From: Octopus vulgaris
Taxonomy: Eukaryota
Reading direction: 5' to 3'
DNA length: 64,000 bases
Assembly (NCBI GenBank): GCA_951406725.2
Contig: OX597818.1
Coordinates: 59,210,001-59,274,000, forward strand
Below are positions 36,693 through 62,365 of this stretch, piece after piece. A program made the position numbers and the translations under genes. The notes below the pieces were generated by a model, which saw only the letters and a program-made list of their open reading frames with translations, had not been told where the DNA came from and searched no databases. Position 1 is the first letter of the stretch; every line of letters begins with the position of its first letter.

Positions 36693-37659
36693 ACATATGT
36701 ATATTTATGTATACATGTACGTATATATGTTTGTATGTATTTATGTATTTATATGTACTTATATGTATAAGTACACATATACACATGCATACATACACGC
36801 ACATACATATATGTATCTTTGTATATATGTGTGTTTGTGTGTTTAGATACATATAAACACACAATTACTTCTATACATACATGAAGGATGGTTGCTTTTG
36901 AGTTATTGTCTCGTTGTTTGGGTCTTGTATGTGTATAAAGGCGCATTATCTAAATTACACAAGTGTTATCACTATCAGCCAATTAGCTTGTTAGCTGTCT
37001 AATTAACTTACCAAGTATTTGATTCCGTTCATCACAGTTTTCTCGGTACACTCTGTGACCTCATTTACTCTGTTTCTCTCAAAGATTCTTCCTGACAGAA
37101 GCAAAATAGAAGTAGTCACATCATGAAATACTTTAAATTCAGACCCTTAATAGAAAGTAAGGGAATCTAGTTTTTCACTTTTTCTTCCTACACGATATCC
37201 ACTATTCAATTCACGATGTCAGAATCCCATTAAAGATTTTTATTTAGCTGCACGACCACACCCTAAAAGAATAAAACTGAACAATACAGAAAGAAAACAA
37301 CTGGAGAAGGATAGTAAACAAACGGCATCTCAGCAAAATCGTTGCCACTATGAGAGCGTTTGGCAATAGAAAAAGTGATGCTTGCAGATTTTTGTTGGCA
37401 AAAACGCTCCGGAAAAGTTGCGCAGAAGCGTGATTTCAAATCTGCCATAGTGAATTTTCTAATTATTTCTCGATTATTTCATGAAATCAGGTATTAATCA
37501 TGCGCTAAAAGCTACATGACTGACTCTTCATTCCTTGAAAATAAGAAAGTCATTAACAATTGTTGCGTGGAAGGTGTTTATAAGTTATTTCAAAACACAA
37601 AAACTGTTAGATTCACTTCAACATTTAAAATTAAACCGAGTTCGATTCCAGGCAATCAA

Positions 37660-38020
<361 letters not shown>

Positions 38021-38077
38021 TTATAACAGCATCGAAAATACCTTAGGAATGAGAACCCAGGTTCGAAATTTCTCGAA

Positions 38078-38123
38078 GACACCTGATGAAGGCTGGAGGG
38101 TTTATTTGCTGAAACGTTGTGTT
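38078..38123 (+). ncRNA. Minimal type I hammerhead motif with eroded stem II
   Basis: gacac-CTGATGA-a-ggctg..ttgct-GAAA-cg-TT-gtgtt. Confidence 0.7.
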
Positions 38124-38197
38124 AACAACAAACAGGATGAGGACAAATATCCGTCAAATCTAGATAATGTAAAAGATCTAAATAAATTTGAAATTAA

Positions 38198-38248
38198 TTT
38201 GTCAAAATATTTTCGTCGTTTTGAAACCGCGACCTGTTCACTGACAAA
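38198..38248 (-). ncRNA. Minimal type I hammerhead motif, G3-C8 core variant
   Basis: Minus: tttgtca-GTGAACA-g-gtcg-cggtttcaaaa-cgac-GAAA-atat-TT-tgacaaa; 7-bp stem I, palindromic stem III. Confidence 0.65.
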
Positions 38249-38509
38249 ATTCGTGCTGCATCTCAATGTACAGGTTGCGGTTTCAAGGCGATGAAAGTAT
38301 TTTGTCAAATTAAATTCAAATGTTGAAGTGAAGCTAATGGTTTCTGTGTATTTTTAAATGGCTTATAAACACCTTCCACGCTGCAATTGTCTTCGTTTCA
38401 GCACACGATATCAGATCAAGTCACTTGCTATGCAAGTACATTTCTGTAATAAGAAAATAAATAAGATTATTTGAAATAATATTTGAGAACATGGTAAAGG
38501 ACAGCATTA

Positions 38510-38925
38510 TTCGAAGTAGGGTTGGTTAGTCGATTCATTAACATCAGTATTTAACTTCTAAATTACTTAATCCACCCTGACAGCATGAAAGGCAAAAGCA
38601 ACCTCCGCGATATATGAACACGTAAAGTGGCAAAAGAAATACCGCTAAGCAGTTTGTCTGTCTTGCCATAACTCTACCAGCTTGCTGCATCAATAATAAT
38701 AGTTCCAAACTTTCTCACAGGTCCAGCAATTTCTAAGGGACGAGAGAGGTCGGTTACATCGCCCCGCCTCCCACCGCCCGTCGCCAGTATTTGGCTAGCA
38801 ATTACTTACTCTATTGAAATCGAAAGAATGAAAAGCAAAGTTGACCTCGGTGGAATTTGAACTCAGAATATAATGACGAACCGTTAAGCATTTTATCCGC
38901 AAGCTAACAAGATTCTGCCAGTTTA
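38510..38925 (-). mobile_element. Two degenerate SINE family B copies in tandem
   Basis: atgaaaggcaaaagcaacctcc and atgaaaagcaaagttgacctcggtggaatttgaactcagaa. Confidence 0.65.
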
Positions 38926-50179: not shown

Positions 50180-50692
50180 TCGGCGAGCTGGCAGAAACGA
50201 TAGCACGTTGGGTTTGTAAGCAGAAACGATAGCGTAGCCGTATTTCGTCTGCCGTTACGTTCTGAGTTCAAATTCTGTCGAGGTCGACTTTGCCTTTCAT
50301 CCTTTCTGAGTCGATAAATTAAGTACCAGTTACGCACTGGGGTCGATGTAATCCACTCAATCCGTTTGTCTGTCCTTGTTTGTCCCCTCTGTGTTTAGCG
50401 TCTTGTGTGTAGTAGAAAAATAGGTATTTCATCTGTCTTTACGTTCTGAGTTCAAATTCCGCCGAGGTCGACTTTTCCTTTCATCCTTTCGAGGTCAAAA
50501 AATTACTTACCAGAAAAGAAATAGATATTTTGTCTGCTTCTACGTTCTGAGTTCAAATTCCGCCGAGGTCGACTTTTCCTTTCATCCTTTCGAGGTCAAA
50601 AAATTAATTACCAGTTGCGTGCTGCGGTTGATCTAATCGACTGGCCCCCTCTACAAAAATGTCGGGCCTTGTGCTTAGAGTAGTAAAGAATA
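50180..50692 (+). mobile_element. SINE family B multimer
   Basis: One head followed by three body units. Confidence 0.85.
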
Positions 50693-61777: not shown

Positions 61778-62365
61778 GGCGGCGAGCTGGAAGAAACGTT
61801 AGCGGGCCGGGCGAAATGCTTAATGGTATTTCGTCTGTCGTTACGTTCTGGGTTCAAATTCCGCCGAGGTGGACTTTGCTTTCATCCTTTCGGGGTCGAT
61901 TAAATAAGTACCAGTTATGCACTGAGGTCGATGTAATCGACTTAATCCCTTTGTCTGTCCTTGTTTGTCCCCTCTATGTTTGGCCCCTTGTGGGCAGTAA
62001 AGAAATAGGTATTTCGTCTGTCGTTACGTTCTGAGTTCAAATTCCGCCGAGGTGGACTTTGCTTTCATCCTTTCGGGGTCGATTAAATAAGTACCAGTTA
62101 TGCACTGAGGTCGATGTAATCGACTTAATCCCTTTGTCTGTCCTTGTTTGTCCCCTCTATGTTTGGCCCCTTGTGGGCAGTAAAGAAATAGGTATTTCGT
62201 CTGTCGTTACGCTCTGAGTTCAAATTTCGACTTTGCCTTTCATCCTTTCGGGGTCGATAAATAAAGTACCAGTTTCGCACTGGGGTCGATATAATCGACG
62301 TAATCCCTTTGTCTGTCCTTGTTTGTCCCCTCTATGTTTAGCCCCTTGTAGGCAGTAAAGAAATA
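61778..62365 (+). mobile_element. SINE family B trimer (183-bp tandem units)
   Basis: Units start at 61825, 62008 and 62191. Confidence 0.92.

What the first reader, a model, noticed from the sequence alone, without database searches (positions are those of the whole stretch)
38198..38248. G3-C8 hammerhead variant
The core GUGAACA swaps both partners of the 3-8 pair. It also has a perfect 7-bp stem I, a 4-bp stem II, a palindromic AAUAUU stem III, one extra G after A9 and a weak UUU site. A double compensatory change is unlikely from random decay.
Basis: partly seen in the sequence, partly recalled or inferred. Interest (0 to 1): 0.7.

Follow-up and report, generated by a model that had tools for sequence, protein, structure and literature searches.

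The report
Swapped-core hammerhead in active Penelope retrotransposon
This 51-base stretch is one of thousands of end-pieces of an animal Penelope-type jumping gene, and the whole family carries a hammerhead-shaped RNA motif with two paired core letters swapped (G-C where related elements have C-G or U-A), so it is likely a natural variant of a slow self-cutting RNA, although cutting is untested and this copy is probably a dead leftover.

Summary
The motif is real, on the minus strand (38248 to 38198), as described. It is not a chance fold (1 equal hit in 300 shuffled windows) and not decay of this copy. G3-C8 is the family state: 133 of 151 arms picked without regard to the core, and no C3-G8 among 7,054 genomic matches. 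The repeat is the end repeat (pLTR) of a young Penelope-like retrotransposon (RT, Cys linker, GIY-YIG). The motif lies on the coding strand about 1 kb behind the stop and about 55 nt before the start codon. At the same place, related elements have C3-G8 (sister family, two metagenomic relatives) or U3-A8, with compensatory stem II changes. Lab G3-C8 double mutants are known to rescue cleavage; my searches found natural U3-A8 but no natural G3-C8. Against activity: no cleavage data, no pile of copy ends at the cut site, a G3·G8 mismatch in 3% of copies, and a sister family lacking A9. The window copy has lost one stem II pair and sits in a fold-back. This scan noted the same variant before, in this genome and in others. 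Verdict: new natural variant of a known ribozyme kind; interest 0.45.

The parts
38198..38248 (-). Type I minimal hammerhead motif with G3-C8 core (the finding)
38235..38241 (-). Core G3 U4 G5 A6 A7 C8 A9 (G3 = 38241, C8 = 38236)
38204..38205 (-). Predicted cut site, 3' of U17 (38205)
   Evidence: inferred from hammerhead numbering; not shown to be cut
38186..38264 (-). 5' part of the tail-less pLTR arm (positions 1-80 of the 209-nt unit) that holds the motif
   Evidence: 94% identical to copy L042
37555..37634 (-). Rest of the same arm (unit positions 69-151), displaced by a later insertion
38263..38449 (+). Inverted, 5'-truncated, tailed pLTR arm (unit positions 22-209), head-to-head with the first; its hammerhead copy is decayed (stem I 5' strand lost, core changed at positions 3 and 6)
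38358..38449 (+). Remnant of the first ~30 codons of the parent's RT-endonuclease ORF, running through the ~58-nt tail
   Evidence: the same peptide starts the ORF in L282 and L283
37635..38185 (+). Unrelated later insertion: (AAT)n/(AAG)n tract plus a second repeat with a canonical C3-G8 hammerhead (core 38083-38089); bounded by a 12-bp duplication with one mismatch (37623-37634, 38186-38197)

Best explanation
The stretch is a leftover end repeat (pLTR) of a young, high-copy Penelope-like retrotransposon whose whole family carries a hammerhead-shaped motif with the core 3-8 pair written G-C instead of C-G, and the motif is likely a slow, conditionally active self-cleaving ribozyme. SHOWN: the motif lies on the coding strand about 1 kb behind the stop of an RT plus GIY-YIG ORF and, in full-length arrangements, about 55 nt before that ORF's ATG; relatives carry C3-G8 or U3-A8 at the same place; the window copy is one arm of a head-to-head pair, later split by another insertion. 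INFERRED: the swap arose once in this lineage from C3-G8 and was kept because it restores the 3-8 pair of the active fold. Like other Penelope minimal hammerheads it would cut after U17 mainly as a dimer, through the palindromic stem III, or with help from the element's protein, trimming read-through transcripts. Cutting would be inefficient, because most inserted copies span the cut site and so came from uncut RNA. This particular copy is probably inactive.
For: Family state: 133 of 151 arms from 120 loci picked by the tail peptide; 43 of 47 arms from 50 loci picked by the endonuclease, some overlapping; 0 C3-G8 among the 19 of 7,054 matches changed at both positions. Parent: 1,025-codon open frame with YVDD, a Cx3Cx2C linker and GIY-YIG over the Pfam cut-off; intact motif behind the ORF in 30 of the 33 least diverged endonuclease loci; pLTR runs into the ORF start in L282 and L283. 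Covariation across families: sister family in the same genome (54-57% aa; tree sister 97/97) has C3-G8 and a G-C to A-U swap in stem II; L272 and L271 have C3-G8, L267 and L277 U3-A8; all six families compared form 5 of 5 first stem II pairs. Lineage-level changes avoid core and stems: 0 of 39 structural against 8 of 72 other positions, Fisher p 0.027. The autonomous copy is predicted to form stems I and II in its 222-nt context (P 0.94 and 1.0). Lab data: the C3G/G8C double mutant partly rescues a Penelope hammerhead (PMC11167929, passages) and was the only core double mutant with strong positive epistasis in a pairwise scan (PMC9901934, passage).
Against: No cleavage data. Copy 5' ends do not pile at the cut site (3 of 216 arms start at unit position 62; 130 of 216 span the whole motif). 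G3·G8, which breaks the pair, stands in 223 of 7,054 matches and 10 of 152 arms, ten times the C/G transversion rate elsewhere, on several subfamily backgrounds; unexplained. The young sister family has C in place of A9 in 33 of 33 matched copies, and L271 has G at position 4, so this clade tolerates core changes expected to hurt catalysis. The Fisher test rests on few, non-independent events and was 1 of 39 against 13 of 73 on another sample. In the window copy stem II as drawn has pairing probability 0.07, and the inverted arm would bury the motif in a hairpin of -79.5 kcal/mol. In the one element tested in vitro, hammerhead mutants did not affect insertion (PMC11167929).
Confidence: 0.68

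Rival explanations
1. A true hammerhead descendant that no longer cuts: the helices are kept as a binding or initiation signal for the element's protein, and the core drifts.
For: The sister family is young and intact yet lacks A9; G3·G8 is over-represented; no end pile at the cut site; hammerhead cleavage was not needed for insertion in vitro, and Naiad elements thrive without canonical hammerheads (PMC11167929, PMC8557442, passages).
Against: Every family compared keeps a Watson-Crick 3-8 pair, in three different spellings; that tertiary pair matters for the catalytic fold. U4 G5 A6, GAAA and NUH are unchanged across subfamilies.
Confidence: 0.26
2. A chance look-alike fixed in the founder of a repeat family and then multiplied.
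For: All copies descend from one founder, so copy number is not independent support; no Rfam hit; weak fold z-score.
Against: 1 equal hit in 300 shuffled windows; right strand and right place in a Penelope pLTR; homologous motifs with compensatory changes in relatives.
Confidence: 0.03
3. The stem pairings are by-products of a palindromic DNA transposon (MITE) or a microRNA-like hairpin.
For: 59-nt inverted repeat and a strong hairpin; weak Rfam microRNA matches, all far below their gathering scores.
Against: The arms are unequal and the junction varies from copy to copy; 34 of 120 loci have one orientation only; target duplications near 12 bp (read by eye); the parent encodes RT and GIY-YIG, not a transposase; stems I and II lie within one arm.
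Confidence: 0.02

Closest known systems
Minimal type I hammerheads (min-HHRs) in the pLTRs of metazoan Penelope-like elements (Cervera and de la Pena 2014, PMC4209133; read: parts 1-2 of 4 of the text, plus passages of supplement 2; supplement 1 was not searchable)
   Same: Type I topology, extra nucleotide between 9 and 10.1, G10.1-C11.1, palindromic stem III, NUH site, place in the pLTR, mostly single or opposite-strand remnant copies.
   Different: G3-C8 where the paper reports C3-G8 and a U3-A8 variant; the extra nucleotide is G where their consensus line has H; stem I is 7 bp against their 4-5 bp.
Natural U3-A8 hammerhead variants (Perreault et al. 2011, PMC3088659; read: section 8 and passages)
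   Same: Natural covariation of the core 3-8 pair.
   Different: U3-A8 needs two transitions and can pass through U3·G8; G3-C8 needs two transversions and puts C at position 8. The section read does not report G3-C8.
Engineered C3G/G8C double mutants (PMC11167929, PMC9901934, PMC3884650; passages only)
   Same: The same swap; partial rescue of cleavage.
   Different: Lab-made; here it is the natural state of a family with thousands of copies.
Endonuclease-bearing Penelope-like elements of Neptune/Nematis type (Craig et al. 2021, PMC8557442; passages)
   Same: RT, CX2-5CxxC linker, C-terminal GIY-YIG, pLTR, inverted 5'-truncated partner, tail at one end, (TA)n targets.
   Different: Tail about 58 nt against 30-40 bp; clade not assigned; only barely similar to the 781-codon family of the same genome (BLASTP E 0.019).

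Membership tests
Type I minimal hammerhead of Penelope-like elements | Literal core C3 U4 G5 A6 N7 G8 A9 | tested here: not met
   G3 and C8; U4 G5 A6 A9 are present. No Rfam hammerhead match.
Type I minimal hammerhead of Penelope-like elements | Watson-Crick pair possible between 3 and 8 | tested here: met
   G-C in 133 of 151 arms; C-G or U-A in relatives.
Type I minimal hammerhead of Penelope-like elements | G12 A13 A14, A15.1-U16.1 and an NUH site | tested here: met
   (U17 in 175 of 175 arms).
Type I minimal hammerhead of Penelope-like elements | Extra nucleotide after A9 and G10.1-C11.1 closing stem II | tested here: met
   stem II is 5 bp in the family, 4 bp in this copy.
Type I minimal hammerhead of Penelope-like elements | Palindromic stem III | tested here: met
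   6-nt palindrome; no shared variant at 10% or more.
Type I minimal hammerhead of Penelope-like elements | Helices supported by compensatory changes | tested here: met
   Across six families, structure-anchored by me, not by a blind aligner; MAFFT misaligned the three distant rows. None within the family.
Type I minimal hammerhead of Penelope-like elements | Located in a pLTR on the coding strand | tested here: met
Type I minimal hammerhead of Penelope-like elements | Works as a dimer | tested here: inconclusive
   Double hammerhead -27.2, two monomers -26.6, best co-fold -31.3 kcal/mol for the autonomous copy.
Type I minimal hammerhead of Penelope-like elements | Self-cleavage 3' of position 17 | not testable with these tools
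   Only assembled contigs were offered, no raw reads.
Endonuclease-bearing Penelope-like element | RT followed by C-terminal GIY-YIG in one ORF | tested here: met
   L228: 1,025 open codons, YVDD motif by eye, GIY-YIG 25.4 bits over a cut-off of 22.6; Pfam RVT_1 only weak, E 0.052.
Endonuclease-bearing Penelope-like element | pLTR holds the ORF start; tail present at one end only | tested here: met
   arm 3' ends cluster at unit 146-154 (67 of 216) and 204-209 (125 of 216, the selected end).
Endonuclease-bearing Penelope-like element | Inverted 5'-truncated partner copy | tested here: met
   86 of 120 loci have arms on both strands.
Neptune or Nematis clade | CX2-5CxxC linker before GIY-YIG | tested here: met
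   Cx3Cx2C in L228.
Neptune or Nematis clade | Phylogenetic placement among named references | not tested
   No named reference came up; all 14 hits were unnamed.
MITE / DNA fold-back transposon | Fixed, equal terminal inverted repeats and a transposase partner | tested here: not met

The most novel reading that the evidence does not exclude
An active, naturally evolved G3-C8 hammerhead serves a currently expanding retrotransposon: the third spelling of the 3-8 core pair in nature, invisible to CUGANGA-based and Rfam searches. Some Penelope-like clades reported to lack hammerheads may then carry swapped or degenerate cores, and the excess of G3·G8 copies may mark cleavage-dead RNAs that escape cutting and insert whole.
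Probability: 0.45. Interest if true: 0.6.

Novelty: new variant of a known kind. Interest (0 to 1): 0.45.

Why it matters
If it cuts, evolution has used the core swap that was known as a lab rescue mutant, despite two transversions through poorly active intermediates, and ribozyme surveys that fix C3 and G8 (or allow only U3-A8) undercount hammerheads. It also gives a clean natural series in one element clade (C-G, U-A, G-C, plus an A9C family) to test the open question of what Penelope hammerheads are for. It changes no concept: the ribozyme class, its host element and the 3-8 pair are all known.

Tried and rejected
Rfam on the window (gathering) and on 37900-38700 (E up to 10): no hammerhead, only sub-threshold microRNA-like hairpins. 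The GIY-YIG family search in the genome returned other Penelope-like families, mainly the 781-codon one, not the parent; a shared 12-mer there was chance (E 1.6). The tail-peptide search found no open frame over 180 codons among 150 scored of 15,156 candidates; the parent came from a 5' extension seen in 3 of 60 loci. A 3.4-kb tandem pair (L193) was a local duplication, not a full element. Viral and prokaryotic collections gave no relative. Of 14 metagenome loci, 4 showed a readable motif (L267, L271, L272, L277), L273/L274 a partial one, and L268, L269, L270, L275, L276, L278, L279 and L280 none that I could assign behind a related ORF; several end too soon. The lower core mutation rate (2.5% against 4.9%) was an artefact of pattern-selected loci and CpG content; unbiased rates are equal (core 2.7%, stems 2.4%, other 2.4%). 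Sequencing runs: no RNA holder listed on record; four runs laid were contigs only, so no ends or expression could be read; among the listed differences at 5% or more none lay in core or stems, 5 rows not shown. Dimer energies were inconclusive. Literature: searches found no natural G3-C8. Lunse et al. 2017 (Penelope hammerhead variants, dimers) and a 2012 hammerhead review were not held, so a natural G3-C8 may be in print there. PMC13481778, PMC6962438, PMC6765202 and bioRxiv 10.64898/2026.07.22.740005 (passages only; its supplements are closed) added nothing on G3-C8.

Full report
Observation. The motif reads on the minus strand from 38248 to 38198: a 7-bp stem I, core G3 U4 G5 A6 A7 C8 A9, one extra G, a 4-bp stem II, GAA, a 6-nt palindrome, U17. 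A descriptor that allows any Watson-Crick 3-8 pair and asks for stems of 7, 4 and 3 bp finds only this site in the window and 1 hit in 300 shuffled windows; at looser settings the real window has 3 hits and the 300 shuffles 85. Rfam finds no hammerhead, and the 51-mer folds no better than shuffles (z -1.21).

It belongs to a repeat. The region matched 2,924 candidates in the genome, a 30-codon peptide from its 3' end 15,156, and a 19-letter pattern with positions 3 and 8 left free 7,054 places against 0 for the reversed control. The unit is about 209 nt. In 120 loci chosen by the tail peptide (120 of the 150 listed; the first 20 chosen for longer open frames), 86 have arms on both strands, head-to-head, usually one ending near unit 146-154 and one near 209. 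Duplications near 12 bp flank several copies (L003, L004, L006, L007, L014 of 16 rows shown, read by eye), and many sit in (TA)n. This is the inverted-pLTR-plus-tail pattern described for Penelope-like elements (PMC8557442, passages). In the window, the tail-less arm is 38264-38186 continuing at 37634-37555, split by a 550-bp insertion with a 12-bp duplication; the tailed arm is 38263-38449.

The parent. A 5' extension in 3 of 60 loci led to about 967 longer copies and to loci with RT and endonuclease frames. [quoted passage not shown] The intact motif lies on the coding strand, about 1 kb behind the stop, in 30 of the 33 least diverged loci and 2 of 17 more diverged ones (some loci overlap). 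In L282 and L283 the repeat runs straight into the ORF: the ATG lies about 55 nt behind the predicted cut, and the tail is the ORF's first codons, much as in the anole element (PMC11167929). The clade is Neptune- or Nematis-like by the linker; I could not place it further.

G3-C8 is the family state. It stands in 133 of 151 arms (others: G-G 10, A-C 3, G-gap 2, G-A 1, T-C 1, G-T 1) and 43 of 47 endonuclease-selected arms. Of 7,054 genomic matches, 19 differ at both positions; none is C3-G8, 7 are A3-U8, the double transition. After insertion the copies decay evenly (core 2.7%, stems 2.4%, other 2.4%), so the evidence for constraint has to come from lineages. Shared non-CpG variants at 10% or more touch 0 of 39 core and stem positions and 8 of 72 other non-coding positions (p 0.027). 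The youngest autonomous subfamily has a rewritten, shorter loop II but the same core and stems. These are few, linked events.

Relatives give the covariation. A sister family in the same genome (1,312 codons, 54-57% identical, sister in the tree at 97/97) has at the same place C3-G8, the extra G, and a stem II with one G-C pair replaced by A-U; its position 9 is C in 33 of 33 matched copies. Metagenomic relatives show C3-G8 with a palindromic stem III and U17 (L272), C3-G8 with G at position 4 (L271), and U3-A8 (L267; L277 with a poor stem I). All six families form their first five stem II pairs, with different letters (anchored on the core by me; MAFFT misaligned the distant rows). With C3-G8 in the sister and in L271/L272, a single change from C3-G8 to G3-C8 on this family's branch is the simplest reading; the tree is small, midpoint-rooted and open at its base, so this is inference.

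How it likely works. The 3-8 pair is part of the active hammerhead fold. Single C3G or G8C changes abolish cleavage and the double change partly restores it in a Penelope hammerhead (PMC11167929); the same swap was the one core rescue in a pairwise scan (PMC9901934). Penelope minimal hammerheads cut weakly and mainly as dimers (PMC4209133). I therefore expect slow, conditional cleavage after U17 that trims read-through transcripts. Most templates must have been uncut: 130 of 216 arms span the whole motif and only 3 start at the cut site. ViennaRNA supports stems I and II for the autonomous copy in context (0.94, 1.0) but not stem II for the window copy (0.07), the dimer energies are inconclusive, and the window copy's partner arm would fold back over it. 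This copy is probably inert.

Results against. G3·G8 occurs in 223 of 7,054 matches and in 10 of 152 arms against 0.6% for C/G transversions elsewhere, on several subfamily backgrounds; of 49 loci with two or more arms covering the site, 5 were C/G discordant and 1 G/G. It could be a minor master, a hot spot, or escape from cleavage; I cannot tell. Together with the A9C sister family and the finding that hammerhead mutants did not affect insertion in vitro, it keeps a non-catalytic reading alive (0.26). No run on record as RNA and no raw reads were offered.

Novelty. Natural U3-A8 is in print (PMC3088659, section 8; PMC4209133). Eight searches and passages of supplement 2 of PMC4209133 showed G3-C8 only as a lab mutant (also PMC3884650); the most relevant paper, Lunse et al. 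2017, was not held. The scan's own notes report the same variant in this genome and in others (27 notes in at least 3 genomes, 8 shown, unchecked); I had the parent and the covariation before reading them. Verdict: a new natural variant of a known ribozyme kind in a known element type, activity untested; interest 0.45.

Noticed in passing
window 37635-38185 (+), core 38083-38089: A second, unrelated repeat with a canonical C3-G8 minimal hammerhead (extra A, palindromic ACGU) and an (AAT)n/(AAG)n tract inserted into the G3-C8 arm, with a 12-bp duplication.
   Followed up: partly
L248-L266 (G000, e.g. C17:6330500-6338500): Young sister Penelope-like family with an intact 1,312-codon frame whose hammerhead has C in place of the near-invariant A9 in 33 of 33 matched copies.
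   Followed up: partly
L069-L082 (G000): A third Penelope-like family (781-codon frame, CxxxxCxxC linker) carries a U3-A8 hammerhead without the extra nucleotide near its 3' end.
   Followed up: partly
genome-wide; L093, L231, L235, L240, L302, L318, L320, L323, L328, L342, L344: C8 is G in about 3% of family copies, ten times the background transversion rate, on several subfamily backgrounds, and often in only one of the two arms of an insertion. Unexplained.
   Followed up: partly
unit positions 1-5; Short copies start preferentially at one place about 60 nt upstream of the predicted cut (77 of 216 arms start at unit 1-5), a possible transcription start or RT stop; the measure is bounded by the reference, which begins there.
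   Followed up: no
window 61825-62365 and 50418-50614: Tandem copies (183 bp x 3; 101 bp x 2) of another abundant short repeat.
   Followed up: no
L197:1473-2765: A mariner-like transposase fragment (recognised by eye from the translation) inserted in the 3' UTR of a copy of the parent element.
   Followed up: no
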